Part shown: positions 3,527 to 48,018 of the stretch, one piece after another | Numbering within the stretch: the first letter of the stretch is position 1 | How the letters are laid out: each line of letters opens with the position of its first letter | Made by a program: the position numbers and the translations under genes | NCBI RefSeq assembly: GCF_057098645.1 | Contig: NZ_CM169472.1 | DNA: 64,000 nucleotides | Strand: one strand, 5' to 3' | The notes under the pieces: generated by a model | What the model was told of the DNA's origin: nothing | Database searches by the model: none | The model's input: the letters and a program-made list of their open reading frames with translations, nothing else

Positions 3527-4444
3527 TTAATGTGCCTGACCGCGCATTTTCTCTACGGCTTTCACTCCCAGCACCACGATGCCGCCGATGATAAATCCAA
3601 GAATCAGATTTAAAACAGTCGGTAATATCATCGCCACCACTGCACTTTGCTGCCCGGCGAAATGTTCAATGGCGTGATGCAGCGGCGCAATACCATGTAC
3701 CACAATCCCGCCGCCGACGAGGAACATCGCCAGCGTGCCGACAATCGATAACGCTTTCATCAGCCAGGGCGCAATGATCAATAACCCTTTACCTAATGCC
3801 TGCATCAGCGTGCTGGATTTTTCCGCCAGCCAATACCCCAGGTCATCAATCTTAACGATAACCCCTACCAGACCGTAGACGCCCACGGTCACTACCAGCG
3901 CGATGCCTGACAGTACCAGCACCTGATTAATCAACGGCGCTTCGGCCACAATCCCCAGCGTGATGGCGACGATTTCGGCAGACAATATAAAATCGGTACG
4001 AATCGCTCCTTTTATTTTGTCCTTTTCAAACTTCAGCGGATCCTGCGCCGCCAGCTTCTCCAGACGCTGCTGGCTCTGCGCCGGATCTTCCTTATGTTTA
4101 CGCGCCTCCAGCATATGCAGCACTTTCTCTACCCCTTCAAAGCAGAGAAACGCGCCACCAATCATCAACAGAGGCGTAATCGCCCACGGGATAAACGCAC
4201 TGATGATCAGCGCCAGTGGCACCAGAATCACTTTATTAATCAGCGATCCTTTCGCCACGCCCCAGACCACGGGAAGTTCCCGGTTGGCCCGCACGCCTGA
4301 AACTTGTTGCGCATTGAGCGATAAGTCATCCCCTAATACACCGGCGGTTTTCTTCGCCGCCAGTTTGCCCATCACGGAGATATCGTCCAGCAGTGTGGCG
4401 ATATCATCGAGCAACGTCAGTAAACTACTCCCGGCCAAAAGCAT
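3527..4444 (-). CDS. yedI: DUF808 inner membrane protein
   Basis: 305-aa ORF with several hydrophobic segments; conserved position. Confidence 0.8.
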
Positions 4445-10792: not shown

Positions 10793-11341
10793 ATGACTGT
10801 TCAAACAAGTAAAAATCCGCAGGTCGATATTGCTGAAGATAATGCATTCTTCCCTTCAGAATATTCGCTTAGCCAATATACCAGTCCTGTCTCTGATCTT
10901 GATGGCGTGGACTATCCAAAACCGTATCGCGGTAAACATAAAATTCTGGTGATCGCCGCGGACGAACGTTATTTGCCAACCGATAACGGAAAACTGTTCT
11001 CGACCGGTAACCATCCGATTGAAACGTTGCTGCCGTTGTATCATCTCCATGCTGCAGGTTTCGAATTCGAAGTGGCGACCATTTCCGGTCTGATGACCAA
11101 GTTTGAATACTGGGCTATGCCGCACAAAGATGAAAAAGTAATGCCATTCTTTGAGCAGCATAAATCGTTGTTCCGCAATCCGAAGAAACTCGCGGATGTT
11201 GTCGCCAGCCTCAACGCTGATAGCGAATATGCAGCAATCTTTGTTCCTGGTGGTCATGGCGCACTTATTGGTTTACCTGAAAGCCAGGACGTAGCTGCCG
11301 CTTTACAGTGGGCAATCAAAAATGGGTTTTTTGTTGCCTGA
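10793..11341 (+). pseudogene. hchA: hchA (Hsp31 glyoxalase) 5' fragment, interrupted by prophage integration
   Basis: First ~177 residues match HchA (MTVQTSKNPQVDIAEDNAFFPSEY... AAALQWAIKN), then the frame runs into phage DNA (GFFVA, stop). The missing C-terminus is found at 47701-48018. Confidence 0.85.
11316..11336. other. attL junction (host hchA / phage)
   Basis: hchA reading frame diverges after ...gcaatcaaaaatg; imperfect identity with the right junction (AAATGggTTTTtTGTT versus AAATGaccgTTTTGTT). Confidence 0.5.
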
Positions 11342-37410: not shown

Positions 37411-39416
37411 TTAATACAGGTTCCGCCACTTATCATCTTCCTGCAAACGCTGGTTCCGATAGAAGATACGCAGGCCTGCTCCTGACGGAATACTGCCGCC
37501 GCGAAGGAGTAAATCGACCTCTTTCTCGCTGCCATCAAATCCTCTGGATTTCAGTTCATAGACGAGCTGCTGTCGTTGATGGTCTGTAATTCGCTGTTTG
37601 TAGTCTCTACGCCGTTTCGGTTTCACCAGACGTAACCTTGCAGCCAGTTCCCGGCGCTCCTTTTTGTTCATACTGTGCAGGTAATCGTGCAACTCCTTGT
37701 CATCCATGCGGGTAAAGTCCGTTCTGGGGTCCCCATCAGCTGATTTATCTTTCTCCTGTTGGTTCAAATTTTCAGCAAGGGGACAGTTATTGCCACGAGT
37801 CCAAGGGGCGCAAGCGCCCTGGTCGGCTGCCGCCTCCTGAACGTCAACGGCCTTACGAACCATTTTCCACTTCACTGCATGAGTACAAATCTTGCCCTCT
37901 GCAATGGGTGACCAGATGCCATAAATACGAATACCGTGATCGCCATAGGCGGTCGGCTCTTCGTTAATTTCATAAGCTGTTCTGATAAGGTGATATTTGC
38001 GGGGAACCAGTACGCCGCCCTGCTTCATAATGTAGGTGGCAAAACAACCAGCATCAGCAGCAGCCAGAATGGCATCAAGGCGCGGGTTATCCAGTACCGG
38101 CGCACCTGCTTTTTTGTCACCCTGTTGCCTTGCCGCCTGACCAGCCAGCAATCGCAATTCACGGTACGCCTGACGCCCCGGAATACCAAAGAAGCGAAAT
38201 TGCTGAACACGATGCAGAGACGCCCAGGCATTAACGTATTCAGCGTTATCACGCAGGGATTTACCCGTTTCCTTGCTGATTTCGCCAGCCAGACCACGCC
38301 CATCAATGTTCTTACTGATGTATTTCGCGATGTAGCTTGTCGGCGTTCCTTTTCGCGGGTTAATCAGCTCAGACTTAAAGCGCGGCCCCGTGTTATTGCC
38401 CAGCTCCTCACGGTCTTCACGGATAGCAAACTTACGCAACAATGCAGTAATGGCGCGGCGGTCTTTTTTGCGCATGAAACACAACAGGTGCCAGTGAACT
38501 GTGCCGTCATGATGCGGCTCAGCCACCCGCACGCCATACCAGCGCAACCCGGCTTTGTGCATCGCCTTACGAAATGCAGCAAACATACCGACCAGATAAT
38601 CGCTGCTTTGTCTTACCGTCGCATTTGTCCATGTCGGGTTGGGTCTGCCGTTATTGAGCGTGGAATGGAAACGTGACGGACAGGTAATGGTGTAGAAAAC
38701 GGCGCAGTCACCGCGCATTTCCGCGATAAGCTCCAGACCTTTAACACAGGCCATCATCTCATTGCGACGATGCGCCGGGTTGCTGCTGCTGGCGTTTACC
38801 ACATCTTCCATATCCAGCGCGTCTCCGTCTTCGTTCACCAGTTCATGAGAACGGAAAAACTCCAGTGACTTACGGCGCTGCTCACGTTTATGCATCACGG
38901 CTTCATAGCTGACATAGGGAGATGCTTTTTTGCTGACCAGGCAGACAGCACGCAACTGCTCTTCCCGCCATTCGCAACGCATCTTCCACAATTTCCGATA
39001 CCACCAGTCGGCGCACAGCATACGCGCCAGCGAACCCGGAATGAGTTCATAGGGCACGGGTTTACGGCGGTTTCTTTTCCGACGGAGTTGCTCAAACGCA
39101 GGCGGGATGACATCCAGACGCAGGGTTTCCGCTGCCACCTTTTCCCATGTCTTGCGGATTTCTTCTGGCTTAACGTCATCGGTGGCATACAAATCACCAC
39201 AAGCTGCATCAAGGCACATACTCATATGCGCAGCTACCAAGGTGGACAGGCGTTTCACCTGATCCTGACTCATTTCAGGCAGGATCAGCAGGCCGTCCAG
39301 CCCTTCATGGCTTGCCATAAAGCGAAAAGATGCAGATAGCTGACTGTCGCGTACATGCTCCAGTCGTTCCAGACATGGCTTAATCGTCTCACGTAAATAG
39401 CGGGAATAAGCCTTTG
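37411..39416 (-). pseudogene. Replication initiation endonuclease gene A, 3' portion (split by IS21-family insertion)
   Basis: 635-aa ORF with rolling-circle initiator motif ([11 protein letters not shown]); frame stays open upstream of the annotated Met as far as the IS boundary. Confidence 0.8.
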
Positions 39417-39515
39417 TGCGTATTCCGCTCTATTCGATCACGGATTGGCATCGAAGTCCGATCAGCGATTCGCATCCATTCGATCAACCGGGAACTTAAC
39501 TTTTTCTACCGCTTT

Positions 39516-40271
39516 TTAACGCGTTTTTTCGCTGCTTTCCACTACCGGGGGATTTTTCCTCAGTGACTCTCCCTGAAGGACCACTCGGTGTGAGTTATGT
39601 ACCAGTCTGTCCAGGATGGCATCTGCTGTTGTTGGGTTCTCCATCAGACCATGCCATTTATCTACCGGGAACTGGCTTACCACTATCGTGCTGCTTTGTC
39701 CGTAACGATCCTCTATGAGCTCCAGAAGGTCATTACACTGGGCGTTACTTAACTGTTCCAGCCCCAGATCGTCCAGGATTAGAACCTGTATTTTTTGCAA
39801 CTGTTTCAGATATTTCAGCCAGCTGCCATCAACACGTCCCTGAGCCAGTTGTTCCAGTAATCGCCCGGTTCTACAGTACCGGACGCTGTGTTTCTGTCGA
39901 CATGCCTGTTCGCCCAGCGCATTGGCTATCCAGCTCTTGCCACATCCTGTCGGACCGGTTATCAGCAGGTTTTTCCTGTGGGTTATGTAGTGGCCGTTCA
40001 GCAGTTCTCTCATCTGTTCAGCCCGCAGACCTCTTGAGGCCGGATAGCGCAGCCCTTCCGGTGTTGCCTGGTATTTCAGGCCGGCATTTTTTCTCAACCG
40101 TGCCACACGGCTGTTTTCCCTGCTCAGAAGCTCGTCATCAACCAGCAGCGTCAGCCTTTCCTCGAACGACAGTTCGTCGTAGGTCTGAGGCGTTTCCCGC
40201 TGCCGTATCAGGCTCCCGGCCATCGCCGGGAGTTTCAGTTGGGTCAGTTTGTTTAACAGGTTATCACTCAT
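39516..40271 (-). CDS. istB: IS21-family helper ATPase IstB
   Basis: Walker A (GPTGCGKS) and Walker B (LILDDLG) motifs; start chosen at MSDNLLNKL. Confidence 0.8.
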   Translation of the reverse strand: MSDNLLNKLTQLKLPAMAGSLIRQRETPQTYDELSFEERLTLLVDDELLSRENSRVARLRKNAGLKYQATPEGLRYPASRGLRAEQMRELLNGHYITHRKNLLITGPTGCGKSWIANALGEQACRQKHSVRYCRTGRLLEQLAQGRVDGSWLKYLKQLQKIQVLILDDLGLEQLSNAQCNDLLELIEDRYGQSSTIVVSQFPVDKWHGLMENPTTADAILDRLVHNSHRVVLQGESLRKNPPVVESSEKTR

Positions 40272-40287
40272 ACTGTTGTTCCTTCTG

Positions 40288-41823
40288 TCAGTGGTAGTAG
40301 CCCGGACCACGCAGGTTTTCATGCTCTGAAGCATATGCCGGATGTTGTTCGCCCTGGCGGGATAATGGAAGCTCCAGGTTCTCCCGATGGTGACGCAGCA
40401 GATTGTCGATAAAGCGTCTGTCAGGGGCGTTATAGTGCAGGGCAACGTAACAGGCCTTTTCCAGCCGTTCCGGGCCGTATTTTTTCTGAAGTGCCAGCAG
40501 CCCCAGAACTGCACGATAAGCCAGTTCCGGATGGGGTTTTGCCTTCAGCATGGATTCAACCACCCGGCCTGTGGACGGGCCCGTACGTTTTCCCTGCTCG
40601 ATCAGGCGTTCCGGTGTCCATGTCCCGTGCTGCCGGTGGCGCTCTGGCATGTGAAGCGGATTGGTTGTGTGTTTATATTCATGTGTGCTGCGCGGATGTT
40701 GCGCCACACACTGCCCCTTGTGCCAGAGCTGTACCACCGACTGCCCCGCCTTCAGTGACAGACGCTGACCGACCAGTTCGTGTGGAACGGAGTACCAGTG
40801 ACGGGCATATTCAACGTGGTAGTCAGGGCCAACCTTCACAGCTTTGTATTCCGTGTATTCATAAGGTGCCAGAGGCAGCGGAGAGAGTGCTGGCGCATCC
40901 AGTATGCGGAAGCGTTCTGCACGGGTTTGATTGCCGTACCCCTTCATTGGCCGGTTATTCATGTCTGTCAGTAACTCCCTAAGGCGCGCATTCAGCGCCC
41001 TGAGCGTGTGGAAGGTTTCATTACGGATGCGGGCAAGAAGCCATCGTTCAACGATGAGGACGCCGTTTTCTGCTTTTGGTTTATCTTTAGGTTTGCGTGG
41101 TCGGGCCGGGATGATAACCGTGCCATAGTGCTCAGCCAGTGCCTGATAACTGTCGTTGATGACAGGCTCATATCGATCGGCCTTTTTCACTGCGCTTCTG
41201 AGGTTATCGGGGATGAGCAGCTTCGGTACGCCGCCCAGGAAGGTCAGGCAACGGCTGTGGGCATTTAACCATGACATCATGTCCTGACCTTCGCACGCTT
41301 CAACGTAGGTATAGTTGGACGCCCCCATTACGGCCACGAAGATTGCCACGCGGCGTATCTCACCGGTGTCCGGATTAATAACAGGAACCGTAGGACCACA
41401 GAAGTCGATAAAAAGCTTTTCGCCGGCACGATGCTCCTGGCGCATGGAGAGACGTCGCGTTTTTTTCCACTCCCGGTAGCAACGGCAGAAGTGCGAGTAT
41501 CCCATCGCTTTGTTACCCGCCTGTGCCTTGTATTCCATCCACAACAGTTGCCGCGTCACACCTGGTTTTCTCATTTCCGTATCGAAGTACAACATGTCAG
41601 GCATTACAAGCTCTGATGCAAAGGTGTCTTTGGGCGGAAAAATGAGTTTCTCCAGCGTGTCATGGGATATATCAGCAGGTAATGGCCATGACAGAGAAGA
41701 GGCTTTGAAGCGGGCAAGAACCTCAAAAACGGTTGAGGCGCTGATGTGTAACGTCAGTCCGATACAACGGTTAGTCAGCTTCTTGTCGAACTTGAGCTGA
41801 AGGATCTTAAAACAGGTTTCCAT
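40288..41823 (-). CDS. istA: IS21-family transposase IstA
   Basis: About 512-aa product with integrase-type catalytic core; start chosen at METCFKILQL. Confidence 0.8.
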   Translation of the reverse strand: METCFKILQLKFDKKLTNRCIGLTLHISASTVFEVLARFKASSLSWPLPADISHDTLEKLIFPPKDTFASELVMPDMLYFDTEMRKPGVTRQLLWMEYKAQAGNKAMGYSHFCRCYREWKKTRRLSMRQEHRAGEKLFIDFCGPTVPVINPDTGEIRRVAIFVAVMGASNYTYVEACEGQDMMSWLNAHSRCLTFLGGVPKLLIPDNLRSAVKKADRYEPVINDSYQALAEHYGTVIIPARPRKPKDKPKAENGVLIVERWLLARIRNETFHTLRALNARLRELLTDMNNRPMKGYGNQTRAERFRILDAPALSPLPLAPYEYTEYKAVKVGPDYHVEYARHWYSVPHELVGQRLSLKAGQSVVQLWHKGQCVAQHPRSTHEYKHTTNPLHMPERHRQHGTWTPERLIEQGKRTGPSTGRVVESMLKAKPHPELAYRAVLGLLALQKKYGPERLEKACYVALHYNAPDRRFIDNLLRHHRENLELPLSRQGEQHPAYASEHENLRGPGYYH

Positions 41824-42055
41824 AGTGCTCCTGGATTTTCTCTTTCTGGACATTGACGTCTCCACTGGTTTAAACACGGCAATGGAGACTGTGGTGAAAA
41901 GAGTTAATTCCCGGAGTGACTGGCAGGATGCCAATCAATGATCGGAAGCATGCCAAATCGTGATCGATTGTGATGCCAAACTGTGATCGGAGATGGATGC
42001 CAAATCATGATCGATTCGAATGCCAAACTGCGATCGATTCAGATGCCATTTTGCA

Positions 42056-42470
42056 CCTTTGGCCTGCCCAGGCTGCTGAAGTATTCAATACGTTGCATCA
42101 GCGGCTTGCTGATATGGGAAGGCTGGGCGTTGACGTCCGCCAGAATGACCATGTCTGAATTAAAACGCTGCTGCTCATGCGCCAGCTTTGCCCGGCTAAT
42201 GAGCTTATCCTGCTCCATTTCGCGCTGGACAGGATCACGTGATTCATTAAAGAAATAACGCTCCCAGACCTGATCACTCAGTGCCTCGCGGCGCAACTGT
42301 TCCTGCTCGTTATCGGCAGCGTACAGAGTGATCAGGTTTGAAAGCGTAGAAACCGGCGCAACTTCCGCCGGGTCCAGATAAGGGTTAATGGCCTTTTTCG
42401 GGCTGTTCCATGAGAACGCTGCGGCAGCCTCGTTAAAGCCGCAGCAGTTGTTCATATCGGCATGACTCAT
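42056..42470 (-). pseudogene. Replication gene A, 5' portion (upstream of IS insertion)
   Basis: ORF is in frame with 37411-39416 once the IS and one copy of the target duplication are removed; its last 8 codons in the track come from the IS end. Confidence 0.6.
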
Positions 42471-43324
42471 GCACGTACTCCGTACACGGCAGAACTATCC
42501 ACGCCACGCGAATAATCAAATCCCATCCAGCAGCGCGGCCCGGAAACAGCAATGATTTCTGTTGCTGATTTACCCTCGCCAGCTGCCACACCGATGCTGC
42601 GTTTTACCTTGATATAGTGGTGAGTAAAATTGCGATACAGCGAACGGATCAGGGATGTGTCACTGTTAGAAACAATGACCGGATGTCCTTCTGATGACCG
42701 ATGTTCAAGAACGGATGCCAGGTGATACTGGTCATCTTCAGTGAAACCATCAGTGTGATAGCCGGAAAACGTACCGTCATACGGCGGATCGCAATACACC
42801 ACATCTCCCGCCTTCAACATCGCCAGCGTTTCATCAAAGCTGGCGCAGATAAACGTTGCTCGCTGGGCCTTTTCTGCAAATGCGCGAATTTCTTTTTCAG
42901 GGAAATACGGATTTTTATAATTACCGTAGGGAATGTTGAAATGCCCGCTCTTGTTATAGCGACATAAACCACGGTAACCGTGACGATTGAGATACAGGAA
43001 ATATACCGCTTTCATGAAATCAGTAATTTCAGTTGAGTAATTAAACTCCTGCCTTATGTTGTAATAAGCCACCTCCCTGTTTGCGATCTCAAATAAAACT
43101 CTGGCGCGAGATATAAACGATTCACAATCAGCGGCAACCTTTTTATAGAGGTTGATTAAATCAGGATTAATATCCGCAACCAGATAGCTGGGATAATCCG
43201 TCTCCATCATCACAGCACAGGACCCCGCGAAAGGTTCAACCAGTCGCGGGCCAGCAGGAAGATGTTTTTTCAGTTCGGACATAATGGCGGTTTTATTTCC
43301 CGCCCATTTCAGGATGGTGCTCAT
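42467..43324 (-). CDS. Dam-family DNA N6-adenine methyltransferase (phage-encoded orphan)
   Basis: [11 protein letters not shown]... N-terminus, SAM-binding FAGS motif and catalytic DPPY motif; stop overlaps the gene A start. Confidence 0.75.
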
Positions 43325-43548
43325 ACAACACCTCCGTTGTAATGTTTGCCTTTCAGCTCTGCGATTTCCTGACAGGTAATGCAAAGCTGCACACCCGGAA
43401 TGGCGCGGCGGCGTGCTGGCGGAATTGGCGCTTCACATTCAATACAAAGCACGCGAGACACGCCCGGTGTTTTGGCACGGGCAGCACGGATATGGCGCTG
43501 GCGTTCTTCTTCAACGCGCTGCTGTACGAGATCCATTGCATCAGCCAT
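43321..43548 (-). CDS. TraR/DksA-type C4 zinc-finger protein
   Basis: 75-aa ORF with CIECEAPIPPARRRAIPGVQLCITCQ. Confidence 0.6.
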   Translation of the reverse strand: MADAMDLVQQRVEEERQRHIRAARAKTPGVSRVLCIECEAPIPPARRRAIPGVQLCITCQEIAELKGKHYNGGVV

Positions 43549-43787
43549 TAGTGGATCTCCTGCGCTTCGCTCTGGATTGCTTCAGCAGTCACACGCAGCA
43601 GTTCTGCTGCTTCGACGTGGTTTAGCTGGCGGGATGTGATATGACACGCCAGGCTATCAAGGCGAGCTGCCATTGCTTCAGCCCTTGCCCGGCGTTCTTC
43701 CAGACGAGCCTCTGTCAGTAAAATATTAAGCCCTGCGTCATCCGGTCCGGTTTTAGTCGTGAGGATTTCAATATTACGCATAATCAA
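43548..43787 (-). CDS. Hypothetical early-region protein
   Basis: 79-aa ORF in the B-A interval; no recognisable motif. Confidence 0.4.
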   Translation of the reverse strand: MIMRNIEILTTKTGPDDAGLNILLTEARLEERRARAEAMAARLDSLACHITSRQLNHVEAAELLRVTAEAIQSEAQEIH

Positions 43788-43848
43788 TTCTCCTGAATTT
43801 AGATAAAGGGATGCCCGGCGGGTTTACGCCATTAATTTCATTAGTTGG

Positions 43849-44190
43849 TTAATTCGGCATGGTTAGCCGTCTGGGAAATAAGCTCACCACTGCACGAAAA
43901 TGATTCATTGCTTTAATCAACTCCCGCTTTTCGTCAGTGGTCAGCTCATTAATGCTGGTGCTATGACGTTCAGCTGGAATTTTTGCCATAAAGAATATGG
44001 CAGCCAGTGCCCTTTTATTTTGTTCATTATTGATATCCCATGGATCACGCATATCTTTAATAAACCGCTCAAGCTCTGACTCAATATTCAGGCCAAAAAC
44101 TTTCGCCCTTAATTCCGCAATGTGATTAAGTCCATTCAGGCGTTCACCGGGGCTTAATGGAACAGTCGCCGCAGTGCCTTCAATAGCCAT
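43849..44190 (-). CDS. Hypothetical early-region protein
   Basis: 113-aa ORF in the B-A interval. Confidence 0.4.
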   Translation of the reverse strand: MAIEGTAATVPLSPGERLNGLNHIAELRAKVFGLNIESELERFIKDMRDPWDINNEQNKRALAAIFFMAKIPAERHSTSINELTTDEKRELIKAMNHFRAVVSLFPRRLTMPN

Positions 44191-44384
44191 TTGTTCCCCC
44201 GTTTTTTCGTAGATAGTTCTGCCAGCAATTCATCTTGTGAACGGCACGGATGCCAGCGTTTACCATCCTCACCCATGATCCAGCCGTGACCGTAGTGCAT
44301 TGCCGGGCTTTGTTTTACCAGCAGCGATGCAAATGATGGTTCTTTCGTCAGCATAAGCACCTCACAGCAAACCGAATGAAGCAC
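44154..44384 (-). CDS. Hypothetical small protein
   Basis: 76-aa ORF overlapping both neighbours; coding status uncertain. Confidence 0.3.
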   Translation of the reverse strand: MLHSVCCEVLMLTKEPSFASLLVKQSPAMHYGHGWIMGEDGKRWHPCRSQDELLAELSTKKRGNKWLLKALRRLFH

Positions 44385-44877
44385 CGAGGCCAGTCACGGT
44401 ATCAACTGCACTCGCCATCGCAGGATTAGCCTGTAAACGGGCCTGCAATGAAACAGCCGCCAGCGCCATCAGTCGTGTTACAGAGTTAATGCTGCTGATA
44501 GCATCACGACGACCGGCACAGGTTTTTACATCGCCAGATACCGCACCTGCAGCAACACGCCCGATCTCTGCGGTTGCACTCATGACGTAATGTGGCAGTT
44601 TCTCTTTTGCCACCTCATTAATCGGTACACATGGCAGACAATGAATCTGTGCCAGAAAACCATCTACCAGCGTTGAATCTTCAGTCAGATCGGTAAGCAG
44701 CCAGATTTCTGGTGCGGTTAATAAATGAGGTTGAGCTGGGTTCAGCTTGTTCCGCAGAATCTGCACATTCATGCCAGCACGTTCTGCCAGTTGCACCAGG
44801 TTGTGGCGCAATGCGAATGCACGACAGGCTTCATCAAAATGTGGATGTTTGGAAACTTGGTAATCAAACATGGTCAA
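44362..44877 (-). CDS. Replication protein gpB-like
   Basis: 171-aa ORF downstream of cox, upstream of A, as in P2/186. Confidence 0.55.
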
Positions 44878-44903
44878 TGCCTCTGATGTATCTCAGAATC
44901 GAA

Positions 44904-45125
44904 CTAATTAAGGTTTAGATTGCATTCTGAAAGCGCATCAACGGTCATTGCTGCTATGTTGATCATCACTTTTTCGCGTTTTTTATCTTTGCGCAGACGG
45001 TGACGGATAAGGCGTCCATCAGCCAACATGTCATTGATGGTATCGATGGATAGCCCTGTCAGCTCGCTATAGCGTTCAATAGTCACATGAGGCGTGGTAA
45101 GAGTGATTGAAATGTTAGGTCTCAT
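44904..45125 (-). CDS. Cox/Apl-like excisionase and switch regulator
   Basis: 73-aa HTH protein divergent from the repressor gene (...[22 protein letters not shown]...). Confidence 0.55.
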
Positions 45126-45244
45126 GATGCAACATTCCTCGTTTAATGATGATTAATCAGGACGAATACGGATCGTTTGTATTTTGTGAACACCATAAAC
45201 ATACGATCGCACAGTGAAATCTTCAAGATAAAAGTTCACTTGGA

Positions 45245-45835: not shown

Positions 45836-46027
45836 ATGCTTGGTAAGGTATTTTTTGTGGTTTTGTCATGTTCTTTGTTATTAAACCCACTAGCTACCTA
45901 TGCTAGAAATTATCCCTGCTCAGGGAAAAAGGGAGGTGTTTCTCACTGTACCTCTGATGGCAAATTCGTTTGCAATGATGGAACTATTAGTAAATCCAAA
46001 AAAATCTGTACTAAAAACTCACGATAA
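45836..46027 (+). CDS. Small secreted cysteine-rich peptide (lysogenic-operon cargo)
   Basis: 63-aa ORF with signal peptide ([19 protein letters not shown]) and about 40-aa mature part with 5 Cys and many Lys/Gly; RBS ggagg upstream. Confidence 0.45.
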
Positions 46028-47305: not shown

Positions 47306-47575
47306 ATGAATAAGTTTCAGCATCAGGGAGCGGAATTGCGCAACAGAGCCAAAGAATTGGCTTTATCCGTACTTAAAACTCACCCAGATGCCCAAAAAAA
47401 CGGCAACGGCGTTAAGCAAGCTGAGGTATTTCGTCTAAGCGGCCTCGATTGGGGAGAAAAACGGAAAGCAACAAGTTCGAACCAACAATATTGGGTTGTT
47501 GCACTATTGCGTGAACTAGAAGAGGAGGGGTTAGTCGAACAGATTGAAGATAGAGGCCCCTGGCGTCTAAGGTAA
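47306..47575 (+). CDS. Hypothetical protein between int and attR, possible winged-helix regulator
   Basis: 89-aa ORF; C-terminal YWVVALLRELEEEGLVEQIEDRGPWRL resembles a winged-helix recognition element. Confidence 0.35.
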   Translation: MNKFQHQGAELRNRAKELALSVLKTHPDAQKNGNGVKQAEVFRLSGLDWGEKRKATSSNQQYWVVALLRELEEEGLVEQIEDRGPWRLR

Positions 47576-47603: not shown

Positions 47604-47691
47604 GTTGGCATTACCCCGTAATAACCACCACTGACCACCAACCCAACTTATTGTTTTTACTCTAACTTATTGTTTTCATTAACCCATTTAC

Positions 47692-47712
47692 ATAAATGAC
47701 CGTTTTGTTATC
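47692..47712. other. attR junction (phage / host hchA)
   Basis: hchA frame resumes exactly here (..aaatgac cgt ttt gtt atc = N D R F V I). Confidence 0.5.
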
Positions 47713-48018
47713 TCCCTTTGCCACGGCCCGGCGGCTTTTCTGGCGCTTCGCCACGGCGATAACCCACTGAATGGTTATTCCATTTGCGCATTCCCAGACG
47801 CCGCAGACAAACAAACGCCAGAGATAGGCTATATGCCGGGTCATCTCACCTGGTACTTCGGCGAAGAGCTGAAGAAAATGGGCATGAACATTATTAATGA
47901 CGACATCACCGGGCGAGTACATAAGGACCGTAAAGTTCTCACCGGCGACAGTCCTTTCGCAGCGAATGCGTTGGGTAAACTGGCGGCGCAGGAAATGCTG
48001 GCAGCTTACGCGGGTTAA
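47701..48018 (+). pseudogene. hchA: hchA 3' fragment
   Basis: Encodes RFVISLCHGPAAFLALRHGDNPLNGYSICAFPDAADKQTPEIGYMPGHLTWY...AAYAG, the HchA C-terminus including the catalytic Cys region. Confidence 0.85.

What the first reader, a model, noticed from the sequence alone, without database searches (positions are those of the whole stretch)
43548..44384. Three small uncharacterised ORFs in the B-to-A early interval
In P2 this interval holds small ORFs (orf80-83) of unknown function. Here there are ORFs of 79, 113 and 76 aa plus a TraR-like zinc finger and dam. Such early-expressed small proteins often take over host functions or counter host defenses.
Basis: inference. Interest (0 to 1): 0.35.

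Follow-up and report, generated by a model that had tools for sequence, protein, structure and literature searches.

The report
Fil, half-B and Orf80 prophage genes
The three small ORFs are real, conserved early genes of a 186/Fels-2-type P2-family prophage: a Fil cell-division inhibitor, a one-module relative of the P2 helicase-loader protein B (DUF5347), and a P2 Orf80-family protein, so they are ordinary for this phage group, though the B link is little documented.

Summary
The ORFs exist where stated. With the start codons supported by homologues they are 66 aa (44154-44354), 113 aa (43849-44190) and 77 aa (43548-43781), all on the minus strand. All three are under purifying selection (dN/dS 0.07-0.24).

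The gene upstream is 186-type cII, not P2 B, and the prophage has 186-type CI/Apl/CII immunity. So this is a cII-to-A interval.

- **66-aa ORF:** a Fil homologue, 82% identical to 186 Fil over 50 aa. Overexpressed 186 Fil blocks cell division.
- **77-aa ORF:** DUF2732, the P2 Orf80 family. Function unknown; non-essential in 186.
- **113-aa ORF:** DUF5347, the most informative. It is a distant but significant homologue of one repeat of P2 protein B, a reported DnaB helicase loader (P2 B hits the DUF5347 PHROG at E 1e-9). It sits exactly in B's slot in P2-type loci and never co-occurs with B in 94 loci. P2 B itself proves to be an internal duplication of this module.

I infer that DUF5347 is a B-like DnaB-binding accessory protein. 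It is probably dispensable, because it is frameshifted in phages PSP3 and Cartapus.

The prophage's replication gene A is split by an IS21-family element. Overall this is ordinary, with one modest new insight.

The parts
45198..45226 (-). Putative early lytic promoter (pR equivalent): TTGAAG, 17-nt spacer, TATGTT, lying between cI and apl
   Evidence: Read from the sequence. Its position corresponds to pR of phage 186. It was not picked up by the consensus promoter scan. Inferred only.
44904..45125 (-). Apl/Cox-like excisionase-repressor gene (73 aa), first gene of the early operon
   Evidence: phrog_575 'Cox-like excisionase and repressor', E 6e-31.
44362..44871 (-). cII (169 aa), the 186-type lysogeny activator.
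   Evidence: PF06892 Phage_CP76, 144 bits. RefSeq annotates it 'phage regulatory CII family protein'.
44154..44354 (-). fil (66 aa), homologue of the 186 Fil cell-division inhibitor.
   Evidence: PF10893, 85 bits; phrog_816 'cell division inhibitor', E 2e-38. 82% identity to 186 Fil over residues 1-50. dN/dS 0.07.
43849..44190 (-). DUF5347 gene (113 aa): a single-module relative of P2 replication protein B. It overlaps fil by 37 nt.
   Evidence: PF17282, 114 bits. P2 B hits phrog_602 (this family) at E 1.1e-9. hhalign against the B family scores 33.4, versus a maximum of 19.8 in 200 shuffles. It occupies the B slot in P2-type loci. AF2 model pLDDT 87. dN/dS 0.18.
43805..43830 (-). tR1-like terminator element, GGCGTAAACCCGCCGGGCATCCCTTT, between the DUF5347 and DUF2732 genes
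   Evidence: Matches the annotated 186 tR1 (GGCGTAAACCCGCCGGGCATTCTTTT) at 24 of 26 positions. P2 has a terminator at the same place after B. The T-run is weakened here, the fold is not exceptional (z 0.2), and the generic terminator scan did not call it.
43548..43781 (-). DUF2732 gene (77 aa), the P2 Orf80 family. Its stop codon overlaps the start codon of the next gene (TAATG).
   Evidence: PF10809, 98 bits; phrog_128. 44% identity to the 186 homologue and 35% to P2 Orf80. dN/dS 0.24.
43321..43548 (-). TraR/DksA-type C4 zinc-finger gene (75 aa), counterpart of P2 Orf82
   Evidence: PF01258, 43.5 bits; phrog_54.
42467..43324 (-). dam, a D12-class N6-adenine DNA methyltransferase (285 aa with the ATG start)
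   Evidence: PF02086, 257 bits. RefSeq coordinates.
42056..42470 (-). 5' part of replication gene A (rolling-circle nickase), cut off by an IS element
   Evidence: phrog_91 'nicking at origin of replication'. Phage homology stops at about 42056.
39411..42055 (-). IS21-family element (ISSso4-like; istA and istB) inserted into gene A. Boundaries are approximate to within about 10 bp.
   Evidence: The phage sequence is contiguous across the insertion point: MK416020 positions 28922/28923.
37411..39410 (-). 3' part of replication gene A
   Evidence: ORF 37411-39318. 97% identity to the 'replication endonuclease' of Klebsiella phages.

Best explanation
The three ORFs are genuine genes of the CI-repressed early lytic operon of a 186/Fels-2-type P2-family prophage. 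The operon order is apl, cII, fil, DUF5347, tR1-like terminator, DUF2732, traR-like, dam, A.

1. fil encodes a Fil-family protein that, as in phage 186, blocks host cell division when made in quantity.

2. The DUF5347 protein is one copy of the helical module that is duplicated in P2 protein B, the phage protein reported to bind DnaB and act as its loader.
   - It occupies B's genomic slot. In phage 186 the same slot holds dhr.
   - I infer that it acts, probably as a dimer mimicking the two-module B, by binding host DnaB helicase and diverting it to the A-nicked phage origin for lagging-strand synthesis.
   - I expect this to be an accessory role rather than an essential one.

3. The DUF2732 protein is the P2 Orf80 orthologue: a small, non-essential protein. 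Its gene follows the terminator and its stop overlaps the start of the next gene, here the TraR-like gene. Its role is unknown.

Shown here: the gene identities, conservation, synteny, the homology of DUF5347 to B, and the internal repeat in B. Inferred: DnaB binding, dimerisation, and timing of expression.

In this particular prophage gene A is split by an IS element, so the operon can no longer drive replication.
For: Identities:
- Pfam and PHROG hits are far above threshold for all three ORFs.
- RefSeq gives the same names to the identical E. coli HS segment.
- Fil is 82% identical to 186 Fil. The 186 record says of fil 'overexpression blocks cell division'.

Real genes:
- dN/dS is 0.07-0.24, with intact frames in nearly all alleles.

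Homology of DUF5347 to P2 B:
- BLASTP E 6e-5.
- hhalign of the two family profiles: P 1e-4 to 3e-5, score 33.4, against a column-shuffled mean of 12.6, sd 2.3, maximum 19.8.
- P2 B as a single sequence hits phrog_602, the DUF5347 family, at E 1.1e-9 over B residues 30-83.
- Bridging families exist: P2 B hits phrog_14551 (E 1.2e-11) and phrog_5349 (E 1.7e-5), and DUF5347 members hit phrog_14551 (E 1.6e-4 and 0.13).

Internal repeat:
- B residues 32-86 against 94-151: hhalign probability 81%, P 1.2e-5, z 7.8.
- DUF5347 matches both halves in the same register (z 9.7 and 4.2).
- An independent tandem-duplicated DUF5347 protein exists (P0245, 213 aa).

Synteny:
- In P2-type C/Cox loci the order is cox, small ORF(s), DUF5347, DUF2732, TraR-like, then (after dam and other small genes) A.
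- The same slot is used in CI/CII-type loci and in loci with other HTH-type repressors.
- 0 of 94 DUF5347 loci carry a B gene. P2 has B but no DUF5347.
- A conserved terminator follows B, Dhr and DUF5347 alike.
- Against 186, the segment running from the 3' part of fil through the downstream gene (dhr in 186, the DUF5347 gene in MHG51) is a non-homologous cassette between conserved flanks.

Structure:

Other support:
- P2 B is listed among the helicase loaders in PMC12661323.
- The depositors of Yersinia phage MHG51 label this gene 'P2 B homolog'.
Against: - DUF5347 has only one of B's two modules, so transferring B's function to it is an inference. Which part of B contacts DnaB is not known to me.
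- The gene carries frameshifts in two deposited phage genomes, PSP3 (at least two shifts) and Cartapus (one shift). It therefore cannot be essential the way B is for P2.
- Phage 186 replicates with neither B nor DUF5347.
- Foldseek against BFVD did not retrieve P2 B.
- No experimental data exist for DUF5347 or DUF2732 in the searchable literature.
- The molecular target of Fil is unknown. The C-terminal third of Fil here differs from 186 Fil.
- Nothing here shows that the genes are translated.
Confidence: 0.55

Rival explanations
1. DUF5347 is a functional analogue of 186 Dhr. On this view it binds DnaB (or another replisome part) to shut down host chromosome replication rather than to load helicase for the phage. 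Together with Fil it forms a host shut-off pair.
For: It sits exactly where dhr sits in 186, as an alternative cassette between conserved flanks. From my own recollection of Odegrip et al. 2000 (the paper is not held), P2 B was reported to inactivate DnaB in the way lambda P does. Dispensability in PSP3 and Cartapus fits an accessory take-over role.
Against: There is no sequence or profile similarity to Dhr. The only detectable homologue with a known function, B, is required for phage lagging-strand synthesis according to the P2 record. In true P2-type loci DUF5347 replaces B with no other B-like gene present, which suggests it supplies B's positive role there.
Confidence: 0.2
2. One reading: the DUF5347 and DUF2732 proteins are anti-defence or other host take-over factors unrelated to replication.
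For: They are small, early-expressed and non-essential, and they lie in a region where cassettes are exchanged. No function is documented for either family.
Against: Both families are conserved at a fixed position across many Enterobacterales P2-family phages. They are under purifying selection rather than showing the rapid turnover typical of anti-defence loci. DUF5347 has significant homology to a replication protein. No similarity to any solved structure or to PADLOC models was found.
Confidence: 0.15
3. The ORFs are decaying, non-functional remnants in a dead prophage.
For: Replication gene A is split by an IS21-family element, so this prophage cannot replicate.
Against: All three frames are intact. 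The segment 43300-44900, which holds all three ORFs, is identical to one in E. coli HS whose prophage has an intact A gene. The families show dN/dS well below 1.
Confidence: 0.03

Closest known systems
Phage 186 Fil (Pfam PF10893, phrog_816)
   Same: 82% identity over residues 1-50, including the HYGHGWI.G.DGKRWHPCRSQ core. Same position directly after cII. Same overlap with the downstream gene.
   Different: 66 aa against 75 aa. The C-terminal third is unrelated, because the cassette boundary with 186 lies inside fil. The phenotype has not been tested for this allele.
Phage P2 replication protein B (PF26815, phrog_235), a DnaB-binding helicase loader
   Different: DUF5347 has one module of 113 aa, whereas B has two fused modules in 166 aa. 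Identity is about 12-30%. DUF5347 is dispensable in at least two phages, while the P2 record calls B essential. DnaB binding is untested.
Phage 186 Dhr (depresses host replication)
   Same: Same slot: overlapping the end of fil and followed by tR1.
   Different: No detectable sequence similarity. 66 aa against 113 aa.
P2 Orf80 and its 186 homologue (DUF2732, PF10809, phrog_128)
   Same: The 77-aa ORF is a full-length member: 44% identity to the 186 protein and 35% to P2 Orf80. It has the same position after the terminator.
   Different: Nothing notable. The function of the whole family is unknown; the 186 record says 'not essential'.

Membership tests
Phage_186_Fil (PF10893) | Pfam HMM score above the gathering threshold | tested here: met
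   85.1 bits against a cut-off of 25. phrog_816 E 2.4e-38.
Phage_186_Fil (PF10893) | Gene lies directly downstream of cII in the early lytic operon | tested here: met
   cII is at 44362-44871 and fil at 44154-44354. The order is the same in 186.
Phage_186_Fil (PF10893) | Overexpression causes filamentation (block of cell division) | not testable with these tools
DUF2732 / P2 Orf80 (PF10809) | Pfam HMM score above the gathering threshold, matched over the full length | tested here: met
   97.9 bits against a cut-off of 25, profile positions 1-75 of 75.
DUF2732 / P2 Orf80 (PF10809) | Position after the early-operon terminator and upstream of the TraR-like gene and A | tested here: met
DUF5347 (PF17282) | Pfam HMM score above the gathering threshold, matched over the full length | tested here: met
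   113.8 bits against a cut-off of 25, profile positions 1-100 of 101.
P2 gpB replication protein (PF26815 / phrog_235) | Significant sequence similarity to B | tested here: met
   P2 B against phrog_602 gives E 1.1e-9. hhalign z of about 9 against shuffles. The similarity covers one module only.
P2 gpB replication protein (PF26815 / phrog_235) | Full two-module architecture of about 166 aa | tested here: not met
   DUF5347 is 113 aa and aligns to B residues 19-100 only. B residues 94-151 are a second copy of the module. The B-family HMM finds no hit in the window at E <= 1e-3.
P2 gpB replication protein (PF26815 / phrog_235) | Genomic slot between the cox block and the terminator plus orf80 | tested here: met
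   Loci L086 and L089, both with P2-type C/Cox immunity. The same relative position holds in the window.
P2 gpB replication protein (PF26815 / phrog_235) | Essential for lytic growth | tested here: inconclusive
   The gene is frameshifted in PSP3 and Cartapus. This argues against essentiality, but sequencing errors and the viability of those stocks could not be checked.
P2 gpB replication protein (PF26815 / phrog_235) | Binds E. coli DnaB helicase | not testable with these tools
   Needs an interaction assay or multimer modelling.
186 Dhr | Sequence similarity to Dhr | tested here: not met
   BLASTP E 0.13. hhalign probability 0.5%.
   The upstream gene is CII. The repressor is 186-type CI (PF07022 plus PF16452).

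The most novel reading that the evidence does not exclude
DUF5347 would be the ancestral, single-copy form of a previously unrecognised DnaB-binding helical module. Acting as a homodimer, it would be among the smallest replicative-helicase loaders or adaptors that I know of. P2 B would be its fused pseudo-dimer. The fil-proximal slot would be an exchange site where P2-family phages swap alternative devices for capturing or shutting off the host replisome: B, DUF5347 or Dhr.
Probability: 0.3. Interest if true: 0.5.

Novelty: new member of a known kind. Interest (0 to 1): 0.3.

Why it matters
The practical result is corrected annotation. This very common Enterobacterales prophage type is present in about 1,300 of 5,426 complete E. 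coli genomes. It has a cII-fil-DUF5347-orf80 early block, not a P2 B-orf80-83 block.

The one point of wider interest is that 'DUF5347' can be tied to P2 protein B, and that B is an internal duplication of this module. That gives a testable handle on how 186/Fels-2-type phages that lack a full B gene engage the host DnaB helicase. It also bears on how non-homologous helicase-loader solutions are swapped among phages.

No effect on host phenotype is expected from this copy, because the prophage's replication gene is broken.

Tried and rejected
- **Dhr homology of DUF5347:** rejected. tblastn of DUF5347 against the 186 locus found nothing.
- **P2 Orf81 homology of DUF5347:** none.
- **Structure-based function for DUF5347:**
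  - Foldseek against BFVD found only a fragment of its own family.
  - The afdb50 library was unavailable.
- **PDB sequence searches for all three proteins:** nothing below E 0.1.
- **NCBIfam:** no hits.
- **PADLOC:** one chance-level hit only.
- **Literature:**
  - DUF5347 and DUF2732 occur only in gene lists.
  - Nothing was found for Fil/Dhr of 186, orf80-83, STM2733 or 'P2 B homolog'.
  - Odegrip et al. 2000 is not held.
  - Nothing was found on the dnaC dependence of 186.
- **The search for related loci:** it failed with the diverse alignment. With the narrower alignment it returned only near-identical loci. Distant contexts were therefore taken from the look-up of encoding contigs.
- **Generic promoter/terminator scan:** it found neither pR nor the tR1-like element. 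The intergenic RNA fold is unexceptional.

Full report
**1. Observation**

The window region 42-47.3 kb holds the control and early region of a P2-family prophage, read on the minus strand.

Window 43300-44900, which contains all three ORFs, is 100% identical to a segment of E. coli HS. There RefSeq annotates CII, a Fil-family protein (201 nt), a DUF5347 protein (342 nt), a DUF2732 protein (234 nt), a TraR/DksA-family protein and Dam.

Using those starts, the Pfam/PHROG match boundaries and the Shine-Dalgarno sequences visible, the genes are:
- fil, 44154-44354 (66 aa)
- the DUF5347 gene, 43849-44190 (113 aa)
- the DUF2732 gene, 43548-43781 (77 aa)

All three hit curated families far above threshold (85, 114 and 98 bits against a cut-off of 25).

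Among 80 related viral contigs plus phage records, the frames are intact in 29/29, 57/57 and 38/39 unique alleles. dN/dS against the window copy is 0.07, 0.18 and 0.24, comparable with cII (0.07) and the TraR-like gene (0.09). They are real protein-coding genes.

**2. Context**

The repressor is 186-type CI (PF07022 plus PF16452). It is followed, divergently, by an Apl/Cox-like gene and by CII (PF06892).

A profile of the P2 B family finds nothing in the window.

The closest phages are Klebsiella 4LV2017-type phages, Escherichia phages Cartapus and vB_EcoM-813R9, Salmonella RE2010 and Fels-2.

Between the DUF5347 and DUF2732 genes lies GGCGTAAACCCGCCGGGCATCCCTTT (43830-43805). It matches the annotated 186 terminator tR1 at 24 of 26 positions. 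P2 has a terminator at the same place after B.

**3. The 66-aa ORF**

It is 82% identical to 186 Fil over the first 50 residues. The 186 record states that fil overexpression blocks cell division. The C-terminal third differs.

The reason is visible in a DNA comparison of a Yersinia Eganvirus (MHG51, same gene set as the window) with 186. Homology runs to the middle of fil and resumes exactly at tR1. The segments in between are unrelated: the Fil C-terminus plus DUF5347 in one, the Fil C-terminus plus Dhr in the other. DUF5347 and dhr are thus alternative cassettes at one site.

**4. The 77-aa ORF**

It is a full-length DUF2732 protein, 44% identical to the 186 homologue and 35% to P2 Orf80. 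The 186 record calls it non-essential.

No solved-structure relative, NCBIfam model or paper gives a function. Its stop codon overlaps the start codon of the TraR-like gene (TAATG). In P2, however, Orf81 lies between the two, so a dedicated partnership is only a guess.

**5. The 113-aa ORF (DUF5347)**

Sequence searches find a compact Enterobacterales prophage family: 357 clusters in one database, and 54 representatives at the 50% identity level in another.

*Homology to P2 B.* Several independent results tie it to P2 replication protein B:
- Pairwise BLASTP against P2 B gives E 6e-5.
- Profile-profile comparison of 22 diverse DUF5347 proteins with 23 B-family proteins gives P 1e-4 to 3e-5. 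The score is 33.4, whereas 200 column-shuffled controls gave a mean of 12.6, sd 2.3 and a maximum of 19.8.
- P2 B as a single query hits the DUF5347 PHROG (phrog_602) at E 1.1e-9 over residues 30-83. There are bridging families as well: P2 B also hits phrog_14551 and phrog_5349, and DUF5347 members hit phrog_14551.

*B is an internal duplication.* Splitting B shows that residues 32-86 and 94-151 match each other (hhalign probability 81%, P 1.2e-5, z 7.8). DUF5347 matches both halves in the same register (z 9.7 and 4.2). A 213-aa metagenomic protein is an independent tandem duplication of DUF5347.

*Synteny.* In loci with true P2-type C/Cox immunity, the order is cox, small ORF(s), DUF5347, DUF2732, TraR-like, then (after dam and other small genes) A (L086 and L089). 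DUF5347 keeps the same slot in loci with CI/CII-type or other HTH-type repressors.

*Exclusivity.* None of 94 DUF5347 loci has a B gene within the fetched flanks. P2 has B but no DUF5347, and 186 has neither. About 80 of those loci are near-identical, so this amounts to roughly eight independent lineages. In the phage collection, 82 records carry DUF5347 and 76 carry B; the records listed for the two (40 each) do not overlap.

*Existing annotation.* Some depositors already label the gene 'replication protein; P2 B homolog'. Pfam and RefSeq call it DUF5347, and I found no paper on it.

**6. Mechanism**

P2 B is counted among the replicative-helicase loaders (PMC12661323, citing Odegrip et al. 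2000). From my own recollection of that paper, which could not be read here, B binds DnaB and P2 does not need DnaC. My recollection that 186 needs host dnaC could not be verified either.

I therefore infer that DUF5347 is a one-module, probably dimeric, B-like protein that engages DnaB for phage lagging-strand synthesis.

Two points weigh against an essential role. The gene carries at least two frameshifts in PSP3, where it is unannotated, and one frameshift in Cartapus. Phage 186 also manages with Dhr in that slot instead.

A rival reading is that DUF5347, like Dhr, mainly disables host replication. The two readings are not exclusive if the protein sequesters DnaB. An anti-defence role has no support from any test here.

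**7. State of this copy**

Gene A is interrupted by an IS21-family element (ISSso4-like; istA and istB) at about 39411-42055. The phage sequence is otherwise contiguous across the insertion, so the prophage cannot replicate by itself.

The prophage lies inside hchA. The 5' part of hchA is at 10793-11341, and host homology resumes at about 47691 with the 3' end of hchA and then hprS. No complete E. coli genome in the collection has this configuration, and the IS type suggests a Shigella-like host.

**8. Verdict**

The ORFs are Fil, a half-B-like DUF5347 protein and an Orf80-family protein. They form a standard, very widespread early block of 186/Fels-2-type prophages.

Novelty is low overall. 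The link between DUF5347 and B, and the internal repeat in B, are a modest insight that I did not find in the searchable literature and that can be tested.

Noticed in passing
window 39411-42055 (IS), 37411-39410 and 42056-42470 (gene A halves): An IS21-family element (ISSso4-like; istA and istB) is inserted into replication gene A of the prophage. The phage sequence is contiguous across the insertion point, so this is a simple insertion that should make the prophage replication-defective.
   Followed up: partly
window 10793-11341 and about 47691-48018: The prophage is integrated inside hchA (glyoxalase III). The 5' 182 codons of hchA lie at the left end next to ogr, and its 3' end lies at the right end next to hprS. 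No complete E. coli genome in the collection shares this junction, and the ISSso4-type IS hints at a Shigella-like host.
   Followed up: partly
L002 2459-2959 (P2 gene B): P2 protein B is an internal duplication. Residues 32-86 and 94-151 match each other at hhalign probability 81%, P 1.2e-5, z 7.8 against shuffles. I found no mention of this in the searchable literature.
   Followed up: yes
L094 5001-5642, L095 1251-1892 (protein P0245): A 213-aa metagenomic protein consists of two tandem DUF5347 domains. This is an independent duplication that parallels the two-module architecture of P2 B.
   Followed up: partly
L097 3786-4132 (phage PSP3) and L005 4294-4634 (phage Cartapus): The DUF5347 gene is broken by frameshifts in two deposited phage genomes. 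In PSP3 it is unannotated and split into at least three pieces. In Cartapus it is flagged as a pseudogene.
   Followed up: partly
L098 about 3966-4334 against L001 3082-3365: Between a Yersinia Eganvirus (MHG51) and phage 186, DNA homology breaks in the middle of fil and resumes at tR1. The Fil C-terminus plus DUF5347, and the Fil C-terminus plus Dhr, are therefore exchangeable cassettes.
   Followed up: yes
window 45836-46027 (+): A 63-aa ORF lies between cI and int. It has a hydrophobic N-terminus and several cysteines, which looks like a small secreted or lipoprotein-like moron. It is annotated 'hypothetical' in E. coli HS.
   Followed up: no
window 47306-47575 (+): An 89-aa ORF lies just outside int at the prophage end. 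It is also present, as a hypothetical protein, in the E. coli HS prophage. Function unknown.
   Followed up: no
L004 3753-4049 (vB_EcoM-813R9) and L096 5257-5661 (Fels-2): The stretch between fil and the DUF5347 gene varies between phages. 813R9 has a longer, 98-aa Fil. Fels-2 carries an extra 134-aa hypothetical gene between the two.
   Followed up: no
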